Part shown: one piece after another, positions 1,524-40,447 of the stretch
Position numbering within the stretch: the first letter of the stretch is position 1
How the letters are laid out: each line of letters starts with the position of its first letter
NCBI GenBank assembly: GCA_030167865.1
Contig: JALAGF010001217.1
Span: 1-40,447, forward strand
DNA length: 40,447 nucleotides
Reading direction: 5' to 3'
Origin: Craspedostauros australis
Lineage: Eukaryota
Notes under the pieces: generated by a model
Seen by the model: the letters and a program-made list of their open reading frames with translations, nothing else
Database searches by the model: none
What the model was told of the DNA's origin: nothing
Position numbers and translations under genes: made by a program

Positions 1524-2138
1524 TTAATTAAAATTTGGTGTAAGAACTCCTACAGGGCACAAATCAATAACATTACCTGATAATTCAGATAGTAACACTT
1601 TGCTTACATACGTCCCAATTTCACTAGAATTTCCTCGACCAAATACACCAAGTTCTTCGGAACCAGCGATCTCTGCACTAAATCGAACGCACCGAGTGCA
1701 ATGAATACACCGTGTCATTACAGTTCGAACTATTGGACCTAAATTCTTGTCCATAACAGCTCGTTTAAACTTGTAAAATCTTCTTTTGGTCAAGCCAAAA
1801 AAAAGCGATTGATCTTGCAAATCACATTCACCACCCTGATCACAAATCGGACAATCCAATGGATGATTCAATAAAAGGAACTCCATAACATTTTCTCGAG
1901 CTTTTTTTACAAGACCACTGTTATGGTATATATCGTGAGTAAACAGACTAGCACCTGCACTTACGGCGCAGGCAACTACAGGTTTTGGCAAATTACCCAT
2001 TTCAACAATACACATTCTACAATTACCTGCAATAGATAAATTATTATGATAACAATAATGAGGTATAGAAACACCTAAATTTATTAAATAAGCCAATAGA
2101 GAAACCTTGTTTAGGTTAACAGTATTGCGGTTTGACAT
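1524..2138 (-). CDS. nad11a: NADH dehydrogenase subunit 11, N-terminal Fe-S half
   Basis: [49 protein letters not shown] motifs; start set at ATG 2138 because the upstream ORF extension runs through trnE. Confidence 0.95.
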
Positions 2139-2143
2139 AGAAT

Positions 2144-2215
2144 TATTCTTAACGGGATTTGAACCCGTATTTCTACCGTGAAAGGGTAATGTCCTAACCA
2201 TTAGACGATAAGAAC
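2144..2215 (-). tRNA. trnE: tRNA-Glu(UUC)
   Basis: Cloverleaf, anticodon loop CT-TTC-AC, T loop TTCAAAT. Confidence 0.95.
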
Positions 2216-9040: not shown

Positions 9041-9113
9041 AGCAAATGAAGGGACTCGAACCCTTAGCTTCAACCTTGGCAAGGTTACACTCTACCTATT
9101 GAGTTACAATTGC
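9041..9113 (-). tRNA. trnG: tRNA-Gly(GCC)
   Basis: AACC-TTGCCAA-GGTT. Confidence 0.95.
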
Positions 9114-16102: not shown

Positions 16103-16422
16103 TTAATGTTTTGTTGTTATTCGGTTTGAATAAAACGCTTCAAATGCAATAAAGAAAAAAAGAAGAAACGATGCTGCTGAAATATATGAACCCCACGACG
16201 CTACTTTATTGAAAGCGTAAAAAGCATCTGGGTAATCAGGAATACGACGAGGCATACCAGCAACTCCTAACCAATGCATTGGAAAAAAAGTTAAATTAAC
16301 GCCTGCAAAAAACGTCCAAAAATGAATTTGTGCTAAAATTTCAGAATATTTAACACCAGTGATTTTATCAAACCAATAATATATACCACCAAATACTGAA
16401 AAAATTGCACCCATAGAAAGAA
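16103..16422 (-). CDS. cox1: Cytochrome c oxidase subunit 1, exon 2
   Basis: (G)TT CTT TCT ATG = [31 protein letters not shown]; spliced CDS 1506 nt / 501 aa. Confidence 0.97.
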
Positions 16423-19955
<3,533 letters not shown>

Positions 19956-22696: not shown

Positions 22697-22732
22697 TGAT
22701 TTGGAAAAGGAATCTAACCTTTATTAATAACA

Positions 22733-27865: not shown

Positions 27866-29779
27866 TTAAAACCCAACACTTAAAGCAACCCGATAAAAGA
27901 TAAGATACAAAATCTTTGGATTTAGGCATAAAATTATCAAAGAAAATGATAATAGAACCAATAAAATAGCTTTTTGCGTAATAATAGGGTGATACAATCT
28001 ACCAACTAAAATATTTTCAAAATATAATAGCTTAATTATACGGATGTAATAAAAAGTAGAAGTTATACTCAATAAAATAGCGATTACTGCCACACCGTAA
28101 GCGGACGCTTGAACAACTGTCAAAAACACGCCAACTTTTGCCAAAAAACCAATTAAAGGTGGTATTCCTGCTATAGAAAATAATGTCATTGCAAAAATCA
28201 AAGCTAAAACAGGATTAGACTCTCTTAGAAGAACAAAATCACTCAATTCTTTATTATGCTTTCTAAAATAAACCATTTGATTTCGCTTGAGAAAGAGGTA
28301 CACAGACCAAAAACATAACCCTGATACCATAAAAATAACTAAGTAATATAAGATAATTTGAAAACTTTCTGATGTGCTCATACTAAAAGCCAGAAATAAA
28401 TAACCAGTATGACTGACAGAACTATACGCCATTAACGTTTTTAATTTACGTTGCTCTAAACCGCCTATGGAACCTACAAAAATGCTTAACACGCCAATTA
28501 AAATAAAATAATTTTGATAATTTTCAACAGCGATACTATAAAAGGTAGAATAACATAAACGCATCAATAAAACGAACAAGGCTATTTTAGGTATCACTGC
28601 AAAAAACACAGTTGTAGAATTTGGGGAACCTTCATATACATCAAGTGACCATAGATGAAACGGAGCTAACGCAAGTTTTATAAAAATACTAATGCAAATA
28701 AGTAAAAAACCTATATACGCGATCTCTAATTCAGCGAAACTTTTATCTAAGTCAAAAAAATAAGCGTCTATCATTAAATCAAATAAGTTTAACAGTATAG
28801 GTAATATAGAGCTGGTACTATATCCAAAACTAGAAATCACTTCATTATTAATAACACGTGTCCAATAATGCAAATTTACAAAACAACCCTCTAAAAATGC
28901 AGTGCTCTGAAAAGACAAGTTTATATCGGATAAAATAAAATAATTTATTTGTGGGTTTTCTTTAGTATAAATCAAATCAACTAAGTCATGTTTTATATCA
29001 ACGTTAACTATGCTAGAAACACCTAAATTACTTAAATTTATAACATCGCTAACAGTCGAACCTAATTCGGCACTAAAAACAACTACACCAATATTGTTAG
29101 AAGATACAACAGATGACCCCGATACTAGACCACTGTTAATAGAAAAGAGAACAGATCGAAGACCATCAAAATTTAAAGTACCTAATGAGCCGTATAGAAG
29201 AGAAGACCCAAATAAAAAAAAAGCAGAAGATAGTGAACCTATAATAAAATATTTTAAACCGCTCTCGATAGAATATGCTGAATTTTTTTTAAATGCAGCC
29301 ATTAAATAAAATGCAATACTATGCAACTCGATAGAAAGATAAGCTGTTATTAAATCGTTAGAAGAACACAAAAGCAATAAACCAAGTACTGAAATTAAAA
29401 TCAAAACTAAATATTCAAAATTGTTATAGATTAATTCATCTTTATAAGATAATTTTACCATTAACAAAAAAAATACTGACAATAAACAAATAACGAACTT
29501 CACGTTAAAGCTCAAAAAGTCATTGATCACAGAATTACTACCTATCATTAAATCAGCTAAAAATAAGCCTTCATTAAAGTAAAGCAACGACGTGAGAACC
29601 AAAATAAGAATACCGATACTATAAATCTGTTGACTTAAAATAACATAACCATGCTTTCGTTGATATGCAGTTCCTATTGCATAAAATGTCAGTTGAAGTA
29701 CAGAACAGCTTAAGAAAAACTCTGCAGAAAGAGTCATTTCTTTTAAATGATACATTTGAAATAATTGAAATTCAGTCAT
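27866..29779 (-). CDS. nad2: NADH dehydrogenase subunit 2 (637 aa, large internal insertion)
   Basis: ESGLKYFIIGSLSS, KLALAPFHLWSLDVYEGSP, SIAGIPPLIGFLAK. Confidence 0.97.
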   Translation of the reverse strand: MTEFQLFQMYHLKEMTLSAEFFLSCSVLQLTFYAIGTAYQRKHGYVILSQQIYSIGILILVLTSLLYFNEGLFLADLMIGSNSVINDFLSFNVKFVICLLSVFFLLMVKLSYKDELIYNNFEYLVLILISVLGLLLLCSSNDLITAYLSIELHSIAFYLMAAFKKNSAYSIESGLKYFIIGSLSSAFFLFGSSLLYGSLGTLNFDGLRSVLFSINSGLVSGSSVVSSNNIGVVVFSAELGSTVSDVINLSNLGVSSIVNVDIKHDLVDLIYTKENPQINYFILSDINLSFQSTAFLEGCFVNLHYWTRVINNEVISSFGYSTSSILPILLNLFDLMIDAYFFDLDKSFAELEIAYIGFLLICISIFIKLALAPFHLWSLDVYEGSPNSTTVFFAVIPKIALFVLLMRLCYSTFYSIAVENYQNYFILIGVLSIFVGSIGGLEQRKLKTLMAYSSVSHTGYLFLAFSMSTSESFQIILYYLVIFMVSGLCFWSVYLFLKRNQMVYFRKHNKELSDFVLLRESNPVLALIFAMTLFSIAGIPPLIGFLAKVGVFLTVVQASAYGVAVIAILLSITSTFYYIRIIKLLYFENILVGRLYHPIITQKAILLVLLSFSLIILCLNPKILYLIFYRVALSVGF

Positions 29780-29786
29780 ATTAATT

Positions 29787-29845
29787 AGCCAAGATCAGGA
29801 ATCGAACCTGATGTGAAACCGAAAACAGAGTTTTGTATTCTTGGC
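29787..29845 (-). other. tRNA-like minihelix (t-element) between cob and nad2
   Basis: GCCAAGA/TCTTGGC 7-bp acceptor stem + TCAGG-TTCGATT-CCTGA T arm; 27-nt linker without canonical D or anticodon arm. Confidence 0.75.
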
Positions 29846-29855
29846 ATTGATCTCA

Positions 29856-31109
29856 TTATACTATTTTAACGTCCATTAATTTTGTCTCTATTAAACCAAT
29901 AATAGGTATAATGATAATAAAAAAGGCAAAATAATAAATAGATGCATATTGCCCAAGAGCTATAAACGGATCTGTTATTGGAGCCTGACCAATCCACATC
30001 AATGCAACAAAATCAGCCACTAATAACCAATAAAATATTTTGAACAAAGGTCGGTAAGTGGTGTTTCTTATATAACCTGTGTAATTGAATGGAATCAACA
30101 GTAAAACTAAAATAGAGCCTCCCATAGCAACAATACCAGCAACTTTATGAGGAATAGATCTTAGAATAGCATAAAAGGGTAAAAAATACCATTCAGGCAC
30201 AAGATGTTTAGGTGTCTCCATTGGATCAGCTGGAATACAATTGTCTGGATGATTCAATAAATTTGGGAAAAAAAACACAAATGTACCAAAAAATAGCAAG
30301 AAGCAAGTAAATGCAAACAAATCTTTTGAAAAATAATAAGGATAAAAAGGTATATCATCTACACCAGTATCCGATCCTATAGGACTCGTAGACCCATCTT
30401 TATGCAGTAAAGCCAAATGTATTAAAGTAATACCAGAAATGATAAATGGTAATAAGAAATGAACACTATAGAATCTTCGTAAGGTAGGTGCATTTACTGT
30501 AAAACCACCCCACAACCATTCAACTATCGTCTGACCCCCGAAAGGGATAGCGGTTACCATATTAGTAATAACAGTTGCCCCCCAAAAACTCATTTGACCC
30601 CAAGGTAAAACATAACCCGTAAAAGCGGTACCCATAATCAGTAAAAGTAAAATAACACCAGAACACCACAAGAGTTGTCTCGGTTTCATATATGAACCAT
30701 AATAAAGACCTCTGAAAATGTGACTGTATACAGCAATAAAAAACATTGACGCACCATTTGCATGAACATATCTAATAAACCACCCGTTAGGAACATCACG
30801 CATAATATACTCTACACTAGCAAAAGCCAAATCAATATCTGCTAAATAGTGTGTTGATAGCAAAGTACCAGAGATAATCTGTATAACCAAACATATACCT
30901 GCTAATGAACCAAAACTCCAAGCATATGTTAAACCAATGGGTGTTGGGTAGTGAATTAAATGACAATCTACGAAGCCCAAAAGATAATTTTTATTCCATC
31001 GAAATTTATTTAATGAAACATTATGAGCTCGGATTCTAGTAGCTAAAGCTGTTTGCTTGATAAGTGTATTTGCACTTAAATCGTTTTTATTTAAAAAATT
31101 AATAGTCAT
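29856..31109 (-). CDS. cob: Apocytochrome b
   Basis: [41 protein letters not shown]. Confidence 0.99.
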
Positions 31110-32461: not shown

Positions 32462-34036
32462 TTAAAAAAAATTAGTCATATTAGCTCGTTGAATTTTGGA
32501 GCAATTAATTAAAGCCGAAGAATTATAGCTATAAAAGTCTTTCCCTGCAGTGTTAAAGAAGTCGTCCAACCAATTTTTCAGTTTTGTATTAAAAATCTTC
32601 ACCCTTTTTGATTTGATTGGTTGCGAAACTGCCAGATAATTTAAAGGTTTTGCTCGCTTAGTTAAAAAGGAACCCATACTGGTAAGGCTTTTCGATGTCT
32701 GAAACTGAAAATGCATAAAATTCTTAAAACTAAACAAGTTGTTACAATTATAATGAATTAGGACGTTATCTTTTTTATTAGTCAATACAACTAATTTTTT
32801 CACTTTGGCGTAAAGCTTTCTAAGAATCTGCCAATTTGTTTTAGCTTCTTTCTTAAAATGAATTGTCTTAGTTACTCGTTTAATCAGCCCTTGCGTGTTT
32901 ATAAAAGTTTCACTATCTTCTAAAAACAAGTTATTTGGTAAGTAATAGTACCGACTTAAATCATTTTCATTAAACTGTAAACAAAACTCTTTACTTAAAT
33001 TGGTATTATTTTGGCTTATAATATTACTATTAGCTTTTAATCTGTTTGGAACAGTTAAATCAAGTAGTTCTAGCTCAGTCAATTGCTTCAGATTCGATAC
33101 AGCACTCACTGAAATATTAATAAAATATAAACCGAAAAAATTGCTAAAATCTTCTGAATTTACCGGAAGGAAATTCGACAAAGAATTCATTCCTGTTGCA
33201 CCTAAATTTGGATTCAATGTATTTAAAGCGTTCCAAGCGCCATTCATTAAGACAACACGCTTCAGTATTTTAAAAATTTCTTTTGCATCATTACGTCGCA
33301 TCGTTTCAGAATTGGATATTAATAAAGGAAATTCTGCATTTTTAAAATCCTGGCAACTTAAATTAGTACCTTCTCCAATTGAACGCAAAATATTCATATT
33401 TGACCCTAAATTATAAACTGGGAATGTCAGATCTACTATAGAATTTAGTACAAACAGTTTAAAATTTCCTTTTAAGAGTCGCTGCCTTAGACTTAAATTT
33501 AAAACGTAACCTTCATAGCGGACATTAGTATTAATCAGCAAACCTAAAGTAGATTTGTTTAGATTATGTTTCCTTGAACTTGAATTAAGTTGATAAAAAC
33601 TTTCCAAATCATTTTTATTGGAGGAAGCTTCTGCTCTACGAAGTTGAATTAATGAAGATTGCCGGCCTAATAAATATAGTATATTCAAGGTTTCTAAACT
33701 AAGATTTTCAAATATGAATAATAACGAAAAGATAGAGCTTTTTTTAAGATAATTTAAATGATCTGTAAAGTACAAAGAATCCATCACTTTTCGGAAAAAT
33801 TCTTGCCAATCTAAATCAGAATGAGATTCTTCAAACATCCCATCAAAAAATAATCGACCACGATCTGTTAACCATGGCATATCAGGATCATTAGGTTCTG
33901 CCAAGAATATCTGATTTTCTCGTATAGAAAGCCGTAAACTGGTCCCAAAACCATCAGTAGGATCAATGCCTTCTCCTTCAATAAACTCCCATTCTCTAAC
34001 CTCATCAGAAAATGTTTTTAGTGTTAACGCTCCCAT
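32462..34036 (-). CDS. nad11b: NADH dehydrogenase subunit 11, C-terminal (molybdopterin-oxidoreductase-like) half
   Basis: MGALTLK..REWE, WLTDRGRLFFDG, NTNVRYEG, LPNNLFLED..FINTQG, NWQILR. Confidence 0.9.
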   Translation of the reverse strand: MGALTLKTFSDEVREWEFIEGEGIDPTDGFGTSLRLSIRENQIFLAEPNDPDMPWLTDRGRLFFDGMFEESHSDLDWQEFFRKVMDSLYFTDHLNYLKKSSIFSLLFIFENLSLETLNILYLLGRQSSLIQLRRAEASSNKNDLESFYQLNSSSRKHNLNKSTLGLLINTNVRYEGYVLNLSLRQRLLKGNFKLFVLNSIVDLTFPVYNLGSNMNILRSIGEGTNLSCQDFKNAEFPLLISNSETMRRNDAKEIFKILKRVVLMNGAWNALNTLNPNLGATGMNSLSNFLPVNSEDFSNFFGLYFINISVSAVSNLKQLTELELLDLTVPNRLKANSNIISQNNTNLSKEFCLQFNENDLSRYYYLPNNLFLEDSETFINTQGLIKRVTKTIHFKKEAKTNWQILRKLYAKVKKLVVLTNKKDNVLIHYNCNNLFSFKNFMHFQFQTSKSLTSMGSFLTKRAKPLNYLAVSQPIKSKRVKIFNTKLKNWLDDFFNTAGKDFYSYNSSALINCSKIQRANMTNFF

Positions 34037-34964: not shown

Positions 34965-35016
34965 TAGTAGATTGAGGATTTGAACCTCTTTATTAGTCAA
35001 ATATATTAACTCTACT
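34965..35016 (-). other. tRNA-like minihelix (t-element) abutting the 3' end of rns
   Basis: AGTAGA/TCTACT stem enclosing GTTAA-TATAT-TTGAC hairpin and GAGG-TTCAAAT-CCTC T arm. Confidence 0.65.
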
Positions 35017-35447
35017 GTATTCCAGCTACACGTTCCCGTACAGCTACCTTGTTACGACTTCATCCAAATCATCAGTCTCTCAATAGATTTTATTAAAATC
35101 TTCAAGCGAAACTAACTCTTTGCAAGTGACGGGCGGTGTGTACAAGGTCAAGTTACATGTTCACCGCAACGTTCTGATTTGCGATTACTAGTGATTCCAC
35201 CTTCATATAGACGAGTTGCAGCCTATAATCCGAACTGGGAAAATTTTTACAGATTAACTTAAAATTTCTTTTTTGTTACTCTTTGTAATTTTCATTGTAG
35301 CACGTGTGTAGCCCAATTCATCAGGGTCACATTGACTTGACTTAATTCTTACCTTCCATTAACTTATCGTTAATTGTCTCTTTAAAGCAATTAAGAGCAA
35401 AAACCCTTAGTTTGTCTCTATTATAGATAAGAGTTACGCCCGTTTCA

Positions 35448-39378: not shown

Positions 39379-39453
39379 GGTGAATAACAGGATTTGAACC
39401 TGTGACTCCTAGAATCACAACCTAGTACTCTAACCAACTGAGTTATATTCACC
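39379..39453 (-). tRNA. trnH: tRNA-His(GUG) with encoded G-1
   Basis: CTAGG-TTGTGAT-TCTAG; G-1:C73. Confidence 0.95.
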
Positions 39454-39686
39454 ATAATCTAGCTTTACATATCCCGGATGACTAGATAACATTAAGCAAT
39501 AAACTAAAAAAATTTTAACTGAAACGTTAAATGAAAATCCGTATAAAAAAATTTAAACGAAGTTTCCTGTATACGTTAAAAAAAACATTAAATCTTAAAA
39601 ATCACTCATAAATGTATTAAATTTACTAAAATCTATATGGTACACTTACGTGAATCAAATACGCGTATAATAACTCAAAACACAGC

Positions 39687-40447
39687 ATAATACTTTTAAT
39701 CACATTTGCCCGCGTGTGGTCTTAAGTTTTAAATCATTCCTAAATAATAAAAAAAGATTAAATTTCTATTTCACAAGAAATGAAACAATTCGTCAAGACC
39801 GTTTTGGAAAAACTAATACGTATTTTAACTTAATAACTATAAACCTCTCTAACGAAAAACTGCATAATCAATAAAAACACTCACATACGACCTATCAATA
39901 TAAAATATAACCATACTTATATTAAATATAACATATATTACCACCCAGATCACCCTCATTAACATTAAAAAACATTAATTCCCTTAAAACAGTCGATTGA
40001 ATAAAATGCTGTCATGTCTAATTTAAATACTTATATAGATACATTAAAGCAATTTTATACTACTATGTCCTTTTATGAATTCGTCAAATTTGAGTGCTAA
40101 GTACGTTATTTGAACCTTGAAGACTTTGAATCCGTCGATTTTACTTGTTTGTAACCTTAATTCGTAACACGAGTCTTCCGTCTAAAAAATCTTTAAACTT
40201 CTTTAAATTTACAAAATGCCATCAACCCGAATTTATTCTAAAATCGGACTAAATGATTAAAATCAACTAGCGATTCTTCTAATTTAATAACAAATTAACC
40301 CTAGAAAATTTTATCGCTGCCATTCCAATAATCACATCTATCCTTCATGCATTATTTCAAATATAATCTCATGCGAAAACTTAATAGTGACACCTTTTTT
40401 ATCAAAATTCACACAAAATCGAATAAAAAGACATATCAAAGACCTTT
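39687..40447. repeat. Large diverged direct repeat, copy A
   Basis: Collinear with 15-775; adjacent to copy B if the molecule is circular. Confidence 0.95.

What the first reader, a model, noticed from the sequence alone, without database searches (positions are those of the whole stretch)
29787..29845. Armless tRNA mimic between cob and nad2: candidate processing signal or trnT relic
Seen (minus strand): GCCAAGA-atacaaaactctgttttcggtttcaca-TCAGG TTCGATT CCTGA-TCTTGGC-T. This is a perfect 7-bp acceptor stem stacked on a perfect T arm, but only 59 nt long with no D arm or proper anticodon loop. It fills the spacer 10 nt after the cob stop and 7 nt before the nad2 start. All 24 expected tRNAs are found elsewhere. 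Established: RNase P and RNase Z recognise the acceptor/T-arm half, and plant mitochondrial t-elements set mRNA ends this way. Inference: selective retention of just this half points to an RNA punctuation role, which I do not know to be described in diatoms. The GCC…GGC ends fit descent from the missing tRNA-Thr (or a Leu tRNA).
Basis: partly seen in the sequence, partly recalled or inferred. Interest (0 to 1): 0.72.

Follow-up and report, generated by a model that had tools for sequence, protein, structure and literature searches.

The report
Armless tRNA-like element between cob and nad2
A 59-base remnant of a transfer-RNA gene, reduced to the two stacked helices that RNA-cutting enzymes recognise, sits between two genes of a diatom mitochondrial genome and probably marks where the long transcript is cut, as similar elements do in plant mitochondria.

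Summary
On the minus strand, 29845..29787 forms a perfect 7-bp acceptor stem stacked on a perfect 5-bp T stem with a canonical T loop, with 27 nt in place of the D and anticodon arms. It lies 10 nt after the cob stop and 7 nt before the nad2 start.

It is not chance: 0 of 200 shuffles give such a module. It is not a decoding tRNA: standard ARAGORN and Rfam do not call it.

It sits in its spacer as real tRNA genes do here, has tRNA-like GC, and matches the engineered "acceptor + bulge + T arm" minimal RNase P substrate. A second, weaker armless module abuts the 3' end of rns.

My best reading is a tRNA-derived element, analogous to a plant t-element, cut by RNase P and RNase Z. The cuts would separate cob from nad2. 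This is plausible but untested.

The "trnT relic" idea is not supported. The literature places the loss of trnT in the stramenopile ancestor, and nothing in the element is specific to Thr.

No relatives' DNA could be fetched, so conservation, the key test between selection and a decaying pseudogene, stays open. It is a new member of a known kind, of moderate interest.

The parts
29787..29845 (-). 59-nt armless tRNA-like element: 7-bp acceptor stem (29845-29839 with 29794-29788), 27-nt middle (29838-29812), T stem-loop (29811-29795), discriminator T (29787)
   Evidence: Sequence. Fold. It is the only non-tRNA hit of the strict module scan, with 0 of 200 shuffles giving a hit. It carries the motif GGTTCRANYCC.
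29846..29855 (-). 10-nt trailer between the cob stop codon and the element; it would be the 5' leader of an RNase P cut predicted between 29846 and 29845
   Evidence: Base -1 (T at 29846) and the discriminator are both T, so they do not pair. The cut itself is inferred.
29780..29786 (-). 7-nt stretch between the discriminator and the nad2 ATG; it would be the nad2 5' leader after an RNase Z cut predicted after 29787
   Evidence: The cut itself is inferred.
29856..31109 (-). cob (cytochrome b), the upstream gene
   Evidence: Pfam Cytochrome_B, E 1.9e-75; ORF.
27866..29779 (-). nad2 (637 aa, with the in-frame insert seen in raphid pennate diatoms), the downstream gene
   Evidence: Pfam Proton_antipo_M. 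Named relatives are Nad2 of Nitzschia species and of the Kryptoperidinium endosymbiont. The N-terminus is conserved from Met1.
34965..35016 (-). Second, weaker armless tRNA-like candidate (52 nt): 6 acceptor pairs and 4 T-stem pairs, with mismatches at 7-66 and 49-65, T loop TTCAAAT and a 20-nt middle. It starts directly after the conserved end of rns.
   Evidence: Motif hit; sequence. With criteria set after I saw it, 4 of 2000 shuffles give a hit. With laxer criteria that allow G-U pairs it is not beyond chance (51% of 300 shuffles). The Rfam SSU alignment stops matching at 35017.

Best explanation
The element descends from a tRNA gene and still sits in a tRNA-gene slot of the long minus-strand transcription unit.

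- **What is left.** It has lost its D arm and its anticodon arm, so it cannot decode. It keeps a perfect acceptor stem stacked on a perfect T arm.
- **Why that matters.** That half is what mitochondrial RNase P (probably the protein-only PRORP type in this lineage) and RNase Z measure and cut.
- **Predicted cuts (inferred).** RNase P cuts between 29846 and 29845. This leaves the upstream transcript, which ends in cob, with a 10-nt trailer. RNase Z cuts after the discriminator at 29787. This leaves nad2 mRNA with a 7-nt leader. A 59-nt by-product is released and may receive a CCA tail.
- **What it resembles.** It works like a plant mitochondrial t-element.
- **What is shown and what is not.** The structure, the position and the non-randomness are shown. 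Cleavage, and selection for it, are inferred.
For: **Intact recognition half**
- The element has 7 Watson-Crick acceptor pairs, 5 Watson-Crick T-stem pairs, a G53-C61 pair and the loop TTCGATT, with T54, A58 and a purine at 57.
- 0 of 200 shuffles produce such a module.

**Predicted to form in context**
- Both helices appear in the minimum-free-energy and centroid folds of a 231-nt stretch.
- With 80-nt flanks, the mean pair probability is 0.77 for the acceptor and 0.98 for the T stem. The medians for the 24 real tRNAs are 0.405 and 0.81.

**Matches tested minimal substrates**
- In PMC4797305 (abstract and passages), an acceptor stem plus T domain with a 9-nt bulge at the junction is cut by PRORP3 at the canonical site. 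The anticodon domain is dispensable, and a purine at position 57 is preferred.
- In PMC3790967 (passages), RNase Z faces the stacked acceptor and T helices, and other parts are largely dispensable.
- Plant t-elements are cut by PRORP1 and RNase Z (same paper). They set mRNA ends (PMC1920247 passages).

**Sits like a tRNA gene**
- Real tRNAs here start 7-10 nt after a stop codon (the four nearest junctions, with trnS2, trnR2, trnI and trnM2; rpl5-trnG is 35 nt).
- Real tRNAs here end 1-33 nt before a start (junctions with nad6, nad5, nad7, nad11C and rps10; trnQ-nad4 is 36 nt).
- The element has 10 nt and 7 nt.

**Genome compactness**
- 15 same-strand junctions between Pfam-identified protein genes have gaps of -4 to 30 nt. 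The cob-nad2 gap is 76 nt, and the element accounts for the excess.

**Composition**
- The element is 42.4% GC. tRNAs average 43.0% and short spacers 23.8%.

**No close parent in the genome**
- The best match to any tRNA is 20 of 31 compared positions, and BLAST finds no paralogue. It is therefore not a fresh duplicate.

**Other context**
- A second armless module lies at the rns 3' end.
- No RNase P RNA gene is found in the window.
- PMC9181182 (passages) says that TSAR organisms mostly have PRORP predicted to be mitochondrial.
Against: - There are no transcript data and no comparative data, so neither cleavage nor selection is shown.
- The genome does not use tRNA punctuation generally. The 15 protein-protein junctions above have no tRNA or tRNA-like element.
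- cox3-cob is reported as co-transcribed in related diatom endosymbionts (PMC3423374 passage). A cut at cob-nad2 is therefore not obviously required.
- The genome tolerates at least one tRNA fragment that looks like plain debris: a partial duplicate of the trnQ 3' part just before nad4.
- PRORP3 cuts substrates without a D domain less well than whole tRNAs. The kinetics for the D-domain deletion and for the bulged minimal substrate Aab9T are in PMC4797305.
- The fold z-score of the 76-nt spacer is only -1.6. For the element alone it is -2.9.
- The criteria that make the second element significant were chosen after I had seen it.
Confidence: 0.5

Rival explanations
1. It is an inert tRNA pseudogene. 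A tRNA gene that became dispensable lost its middle, by one or a few internal deletions. The stems are intact only because too little time has passed. Any cleavage is incidental and nothing selects for it.
For: - tRNA debris exists in this genome. A copy of the trnQ T arm (15 of 17 bases), followed by a shortened acceptor strand, lies 10 nt after trnQ.
- Most gene junctions manage without any tRNA-like signal.
- Neither the element nor the second candidate could be shown to be conserved.
Against: - No parent tRNA is left in the genome, so it is not a recent duplicate.
- Its centre keeps no recognisable D or anticodon arm, yet all 12 stem pairs and the T loop are perfect.
- The genome is very compact: junction gaps between protein genes are -4 to 30 nt, so a useless 59 nt should be prone to deletion.
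- Its GC content is tRNA-like, not spacer-like.
- A second module of the same architecture lies at another gene end.
Confidence: 0.32
2. It is a non-decoding tRNA-like RNA with a function of its own as a small RNA. This would resemble the tRNA-X loci of Vischeria (eustigmatophyte) mitogenomes. Separation of cob from nad2 would then be a side effect.
For: PMC13449250 (passages) reports tRNA-like loci in mitogenomes of a related algal class. Their anticodon arm varies or is nearly missing, while the T arm is highly conserved. The authors judge them kept by selection, with unknown function. The diatom element has the same pattern within a single sequence.
Against: - Those loci derive from trnK(uuu). 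The element shows no special likeness to this genome's trnK (14 of 31 positions).
- No expression or conservation data exist here.
- Plant t-elements, the better-studied analogue, are CCA-tailed but not aminoacylated, and no function of their own is known (bioRxiv 10.1101/2024.09.09.612099 passages).
Confidence: 0.1
3. It is a working, bizarre decoding tRNA: a D-armless tRNA read as Asn(GUU), or the missing tRNA-Thr.
For: ARAGORN in metazoan-mitochondrial mode calls it a D-loop tRNA-Asn(gtt). The genome has 400 Thr codons and no trnT.
Against: - The ARAGORN model needs a 9-nt anticodon loop and an A.G mismatch.
- That mode makes 4 calls beyond the 24 real tRNAs in this window, one of them inside rns.
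- A normal trnN(gtt) already exists.
- By hand I found no register that gives a 5-bp stem with a 7-nt loop and T at position 33.
- Rfam finds no tRNA match at E<=10.
- trnT is reported lost in the stramenopile ancestor.
Confidence: 0.02
4. It is a chance inverted repeat in an AT-rich spacer.
For: None beyond the modest fold z-score of the whole spacer (-1.6).
Against: 0 of 200 shuffles give the strict module. The exact T-arm motif is expected 0.18 times per window.
Confidence: 0.01

Closest known systems
Plant mitochondrial t-elements (Forner et al. 2007, PMC1920247; first described by Hanic-Joyce et al. 1990, which I know only as cited there)
   Same: Both are non-decoding tRNA-like structures that carry the T-arm motif GGTTCRANYCC, lie in transcribed spacers, and have borders that coincide with gene ends. 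In plants RNase P and RNase Z cut them and so set mRNA and rRNA ends.
   Different: - Plant t-elements are described as non-canonical cloverleaves of about 74 nt, some with a traceable parent tRNA. This one is 59 nt, has neither a D arm nor an anticodon arm, and has no identifiable parent.
- It occurs in a stramenopile lineage and a very compact genome.
- Cleavage is untested here.
Engineered minimal RNase P substrate 'Aab9T' (acceptor stem + 9-nt bulge + T domain; Brillante et al. 2016, PMC4797305)
   Same: The architecture is the same: an uninterrupted 3' strand, with the acceptor and T helices separated on the 5' side by an unpaired insert. The T loop is canonical, with a purine at position 57. 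PRORP3 cuts the engineered substrate at the canonical site.
   Different: That substrate is a laboratory construct from a bacterial tRNA-Gly, tested with a plant nuclear enzyme. Here the insert is 27 nt and may form a small hairpin, and the enzyme is an uncharacterised diatom one.
tRNA-X1/X2/X3 loci of Vischeria (eustigmatophyte) mitogenomes (PMC13449250)
   Same: Both are tRNA-like loci in an ochrophyte mitogenome with a degenerate or nearly missing anticodon arm and a conserved T arm, and are judged non-decoding.
   Different: Those loci are paralogues of trnK(uuu), are conserved across a genus, and have unknown function. The diatom element has no known parent, its conservation is unknown, and it lacks the D arm as well.
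tRNA punctuation of animal mitochondrial transcripts, and mascRNA cut from MALAT1 (as summarised in PMC9181182 and bioRxiv 10.1101/2024.09.09.612099)
   Same: tRNA-processing enzymes are used to cut a longer transcript at a tRNA or tRNA-like fold.
   Different: Punctuation uses working tRNAs at nearly every junction. mascRNA is a nuclear cloverleaf mimic. Here there are at most two elements, in a genome where most junctions have no such signal.

Membership tests
Canonical decoding tRNA gene | Cloverleaf with a D arm, and an anticodon arm of 5 bp with a 7-nt loop | tested here: not met
   Standard ARAGORN makes no call. Rfam RF00005 gives no match at E<=10, while the 24 real tRNAs score 49-71 bits. 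By hand I found no register with a 5-bp stem and a 7-nt loop.
Canonical decoding tRNA gene | 7-bp acceptor stem, discriminator base, and a 5-bp T stem with a TTCRA-type loop stacked on it | tested here: met
Mitochondrial t-element (plant type) | tRNA-like fold outside the tRNA set that carries the T-arm motif GGTTCRANYCC | tested here: met
   (motif at 29798-29808). Folds.
Mitochondrial t-element (plant type) | Borders coincide with mapped mRNA or rRNA termini | not testable with these tools
   Only gene coordinates are known: 10 nt after the cob stop and 7 nt before the nad2 ATG. There are no transcript data.
Mitochondrial t-element (plant type) | Cut by RNase P and RNase Z; non-templated C/A or CCA added to the 3' end | not testable with these tools
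   Inferred from studies of minimal substrates.
Mitochondrial t-element (plant type) | Homology to a tRNA gene | tested here: inconclusive
   The acceptor and T arm are of tRNA type, but the best match to any resident tRNA is 20 of 31 positions and there is no BLAST paralogue. tRNAs of other genomes could not be fetched.
Relic of mitochondrial trnT | Descent from a trnT present in the lineage; Thr anticodon or Thr-specific sequence | tested here: inconclusive
   There is no anticodon arm to read. The literature places the loss of trnT in the stramenopile ancestor, which argues against this reading. I had no trnT reference sequences to compare.
D-armless tRNA of the metazoan mitochondrial type | D-replacement loop together with a regular anticodon arm | tested here: not met
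   The ARAGORN -mt model has a 9-nt loop and an A.G mismatch. That mode gives 4 calls beyond the 24 real tRNAs in this window.
Eustigmatophyte tRNA-X loci | Paralogue of trnK(uuu), conserved across species | tested here: not met
   Likeness to this genome's trnK is 14 of 31 positions. Conservation across species could not be tested.

The most novel reading that the evidence does not exclude
Diatom mitochondria use naturally minimised 'armless' tRNA mimics as selected punctuation marks. These mimics are only the acceptor stem and T arm with a short insert.

- One sets the cob 3' end and the nad2 5' end. A second sets the 3' end of the small-subunit rRNA.
- Both would be conserved among raphid pennate diatoms, with compensatory stem changes.
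- Both would be released as CCA-tailed small RNAs.

This would be the first t-element-like system outside plants. It would also be a natural counterpart of the laboratory minimal substrates of RNase P and RNase Z.
Probability: 0.3. Interest if true: 0.6.

Novelty: new member of a known kind. Interest (0 to 1): 0.45.

Why it matters
Almost nothing is known about how diatom mitochondrial transcripts are cut into mRNAs. In my searches of the held library, no paper describes a tRNA-like processing element in a diatom mitogenome.

If this element, and the one at the rns 3' end, are real processing signals, three things follow:
- The use of tRNA mimics as punctuation would reach beyond plants and animals into stramenopiles.
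- They would show what the smallest natural substrate of an organellar RNase P/RNase Z pair looks like.
- They would give annotators a reason to look for such elements, which standard tRNA finders miss.

If it is only a decaying pseudogene, it is a small record of tRNA gene loss in this lineage.

Tried and rejected
**Comparative DNA**
- I ran the search for related loci with the cob protein against genome contigs, hoping for diatom mitochondrial contigs mis-binned in bacterial assemblies.
The best 80 were all alphaproteobacterial or similar, at 47-58% identity. None was mitochondrial and I did not use them further.

**Rfam.** A search of the region at E<=10 gave only four weak plus-strand matches (ppoRNA, two snoRNAs, U3) at E 2-9. 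I take these as chance.

**ARAGORN at relaxed thresholds**
- It gave an 84-nt 'tRNA-Leu(caa)' at 29870..29787 that uses a different 5' strand inside cob.
- That model has a mismatched acceptor and two mismatches in the anticodon stem. I rejected it in favour of the perfect 7-bp pairing.
- I also rejected its 'Asn' call in metazoan mode.

**Parent tRNA.** A comparison of acceptor and T arm with all 24 tRNAs and blastn-short of the spacer against the window found no parent.

**ORFs.** No ORF longer than 26 codons crosses the element, apart from the 5-codon upstream extension of the nad2 frame. Neither a protein reading nor a protein-database route to relatives is available.

**Literature**
- A search for the genome length found nothing (one search was a format error; one search gave 0 papers).
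- The trnT mentions in two diatom organelle papers (PMC12949581, PMC11767216) concern plastid genes only.

**Laxer module scan.** With G-U pairs allowed and thresholds of 6 of 7 and 4 of 5, the scan is not informative: it gives 0.69 sites per shuffle.

Full report
**What the window is**

- The window is a diatom mitochondrial genome or most of one.
- Pfam identifies cob, cox1-3, nad1-7, nad9, a split nad11, atp6, tatC and many ribosomal protein genes, almost all on the minus strand.
- Rfam finds rns, rnl, 24 tRNAs and a group II intron domain.
- The 637-aa protein downstream of the element is Nad2. Its named relatives are Nad2 of Nitzschia dissipata, Nitzschia ovalis and the Kryptoperidinium foliaceum endosymbiont. 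The best hit has 63% identity.
- The long in-frame nad2 insert and the split nad11 are features that PMC3423374 (passages) describes for dinotom endosymbionts. The split nad11 is also reported there for Fragilariopsis. I therefore take the source to be a raphid pennate diatom with no very close relative in the protein set.

- The parts are: acceptor 5' strand 29845-29839; 27-nt middle 29838-29812; T stem, loop, stem 29811-29795; acceptor 3' strand 29794-29788; discriminator T at 29787.
- cob stops at 29858-29856, so 10 nt precede the element.
- The nad2 ATG at 29779 is the true start, because Met1 and the following residues are conserved in an 11-sequence alignment. So 7 nt follow the element.
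- Standard ARAGORN finds 24 tRNAs, none for Thr and none at this site.

**It is not chance**

- I scanned both strands for a module in tRNA geometry: 7 Watson-Crick acceptor pairs, then 5 Watson-Crick T-stem pairs with a TTCRANN loop, directly followed by the acceptor 3' strand.
- The scan returns 6 hits: 5 real tRNAs and this element. With G-U pairs allowed it returns 22 hits: 21 of the 24 tRNAs and this element.
- In 200 dinucleotide shuffles, the strict scan found nothing in any shuffle. The G-U version found at least one hit in 50 of 200. A version without the loop motif found at least one in 142 of 200.
- The motif that Forner et al. used to find plant t-elements, GGTTCRANYCC, has 21 exact matches, against 0.18 expected. 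Of these, 19 are in tRNAs, one is this element and one is a further site.

**It is not a decoding tRNA**

- Rfam's tRNA model gives no match here at E<=10. The 24 real tRNAs score 49-71 bits.
- ARAGORN's metazoan-mitochondrial mode calls a D-armless tRNA-Asn(gtt). That model needs a 9-nt loop and an A.G mismatch.
- That mode also makes 4 calls beyond the 24 real tRNAs in this window, one of them inside rns. A normal trnN(gtt) exists.
- A relaxed standard run proposes an 84-nt Leu(caa) that uses a different, mismatched 5' strand inside cob. I reject it.
- No ORF crosses the element.

**How it sits in the genome**

- Same-strand junctions between Pfam-identified protein genes have gaps of -4 to 30 nt (15 junctions). 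In that table I set the starts of nad1 and rps8 by hand, to clear the adjacent tRNAs.
- The cob-nad2 gap is 76 nt, and the element explains the excess.
- At the four nearest junctions, real tRNAs start 7-10 nt after the upstream stop: nad2-trnS2 10, rps10-trnR2 7, cox2-trnI 8, nad6-trnM2 7. The rpl5-trnG gap is 35 nt.
- Real tRNAs end 1-33 nt before the next start: trnM3-nad6 1, trnR2-nad5 10, trnI-nad7 15, trnV-nad11 17, trnS2-rps10 33. The trnQ-nad4 gap is 36 nt.
- The element's flanks of 10 nt and 7 nt are those of a tRNA-gene slot.
- Its GC content is 42.4%. tRNAs average 43.0% and short spacers 23.8%.

**Folding**

- The element alone folds at -15.6 kcal/mol, with z = -2.9.
- Both helices persist in the minimum-free-energy and centroid folds of a 231-nt context.
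- With 80-nt flanks, the mean pair probabilities are 0.77 (acceptor) and 0.98 (T stem). The medians for the real tRNAs are 0.405 and 0.81.
- The whole 76-nt spacer has only z = -1.6.

**Origin**

- No resident tRNA is a close parent. The best match is 20 of 31 compared positions. trnL(uag) shares 6 of 7 bases of the acceptor 5' strand but has a different T arm.
- blastn-short of the spacer against the window finds no paralogue.
- Passages of PMC4824035 and PMC7936722 state that trnT is thought to have been lost in the common ancestor of stramenopiles. A neutral trnT relic with 12 perfect stem pairs is therefore not credible. A selected relic should be widespread, which I could not test.
- The isotype of the ancestor stays unknown.
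- The genome does make tRNA debris. Ten nt after trnQ lies a copy of its T arm (15 of 17 bases) and a shortened acceptor 3' strand, ending 5 nt before the nad4 ATG.

**A second element**

- The extra motif hit lies on the minus strand at 34986-34976, in the 134-nt gap between rns and trnM.
- Around it, 35016..34965 can form 6 acceptor pairs and 4 T-stem pairs in tRNA geometry. The two pairs at the helix junction are mismatched, the middle is 20 nt and the loop is TTCAAAT.
- In the Rfam SSU alignment, matching letters end at 35017. The model's last 7 positions are laid without identity on the 7 bases that form the acceptor 5' strand. An RNase P cut there would make the rns 3' end.
- With the motif, at least 4 of 5 Watson-Crick T pairs and at least 6 of 7 Watson-Crick acceptor pairs, the window has 16 hits (14 tRNAs and the two elements). 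4 of 2000 shuffles have any hit. These criteria were chosen after I saw the site.
- Under a laxer scan that allows G-U pairs, 51% of 300 shuffles have a hit.
- The acceptor pairing is absent from the minimum-free-energy fold of a 141-nt context. With 80-nt flanks its pair probability is 0.56.
- I treat this second element as suggestive.

**Mechanism**

- Established, from the passages I read:
  - RNase Z faces the stacked acceptor and T helices, and the rest is largely dispensable. Plant PRORP1 and long-form RNase Z cut t-elements (PMC3790967).
  - t-element borders coincide with mapped mRNA ends in Arabidopsis (PMC1920247).
  - t-elements are CCA-tailed but not aminoacylated (bioRxiv 10.1101/2024.09.09.612099).
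  - PRORP3 cuts an acceptor-plus-T-domain substrate with a 9-nt junction bulge at the canonical site. It measures the combined helix length and prefers a purine at position 57, but works less well than on a whole tRNA (PMC4797305).
  - TSAR organisms mostly have PRORP predicted to be mitochondrial (PMC9181182).
- The window has no RNase P RNA gene at Rfam gathering score.
- Inferred: the element is cut on both sides, which separates the transcript ending in cob from nad2 mRNA.
- I put 0.5 on this as the selected role. I put about 0.32 on an unselected pseudogene, which might still be cut, and 0.1 on a small RNA with a role of its own, as proposed for the eustigmatophyte tRNA-X loci (PMC13449250). 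Very little is left for a decoding tRNA or for chance.

**What is known and what is new**

- tRNA-like processing elements are well known in plant mitochondria.
- tRNA-like loci with a conserved T arm and a degenerate anticodon arm have been reported in eustigmatophyte mitogenomes.
- Four searches of the held library found no such report for diatoms:
  - 'diatom', 'mitogenome', 'tRNA-like': 5 papers.
  - 'diatom', 'mitochondrial', 'tRNA punctuation': 6 papers.
  - 'diatom', 'mitochondrial genome', 'tRNA-like': 12 papers.
  - A pseudogene/remnant term set: 24 papers.
- Subscription papers, and supplements I did not open (for example Note S5 of PMC13449250), may hold more.
- I file the element as a new member of a known kind.

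**What stays open**

- Comparative DNA could not be obtained. 
- Conservation, the ancestor's isotype and every statement about cleavage therefore remain untested.

Noticed in passing
window 34965-35016 (-): A second armless tRNA-like candidate (52 nt) starts directly after the conserved end of rns and lies 89 nt upstream of a trnM(cat). It has 6 acceptor pairs and 4 T-stem pairs, with two mismatches at the helix junction, and the T loop TTCAAAT. With criteria set after I saw it, 4 of 2000 shuffles give a hit. With laxer criteria it is not beyond chance.
   Followed up: partly
window 22702-22725 (-): A partial tandem duplicate of the 3' part of trnQ lies in the 36-nt spacer between trnQ and the nad4 ATG. 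It has 15 of 17 T-arm bases and then a shortened acceptor strand. It shows that tRNA fragments arise and persist in this genome.
   Followed up: partly
window 9041-9113 (-) and all protein genes: The only tRNA-Gly has anticodon GCC, yet 149 of 428 Gly codons in 26 genes are GGA or GGG. There are 400 Thr codons and no trnT. At least two tRNA species would have to be imported or decoded in an unusual way.
   Followed up: no
window 27866-29779 (-); 1524-2201 (-) and 32462-34036 (-): nad2 carries a long, poorly conserved in-frame insert (roughly residues 205-355 in the alignment). nad11 is split into two distant pieces. PMC3423374 reports the nad2 insert for dinotom endosymbionts and the nad11 split also for Fragilariopsis.
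   Followed up: partly
window 16103-19946 (-): cox1 is interrupted by a group II intron. Rfam places domain V at 16423-16503. The intron holds a 718-aa ORF with reverse transcriptase, maturase and HNH domains at 16530-18686.
   Followed up: no
window about 29711-29741 (-): A hairpin of 6 + 6 bp with one bulged base and a 6-nt loop lies inside the first 25 codons of nad2. It is present in both the minimum-free-energy and the centroid fold of the 231-nt context.
   Followed up: no
window 39453-40447 and 1-1523: About 2.5 kb has no ORF of 90 aa or more and no Rfam match. Its GC content is 27-28%. It is probably the non-coding or repeat region that many diatom mitogenomes have. I did not examine it.
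   Followed up: no
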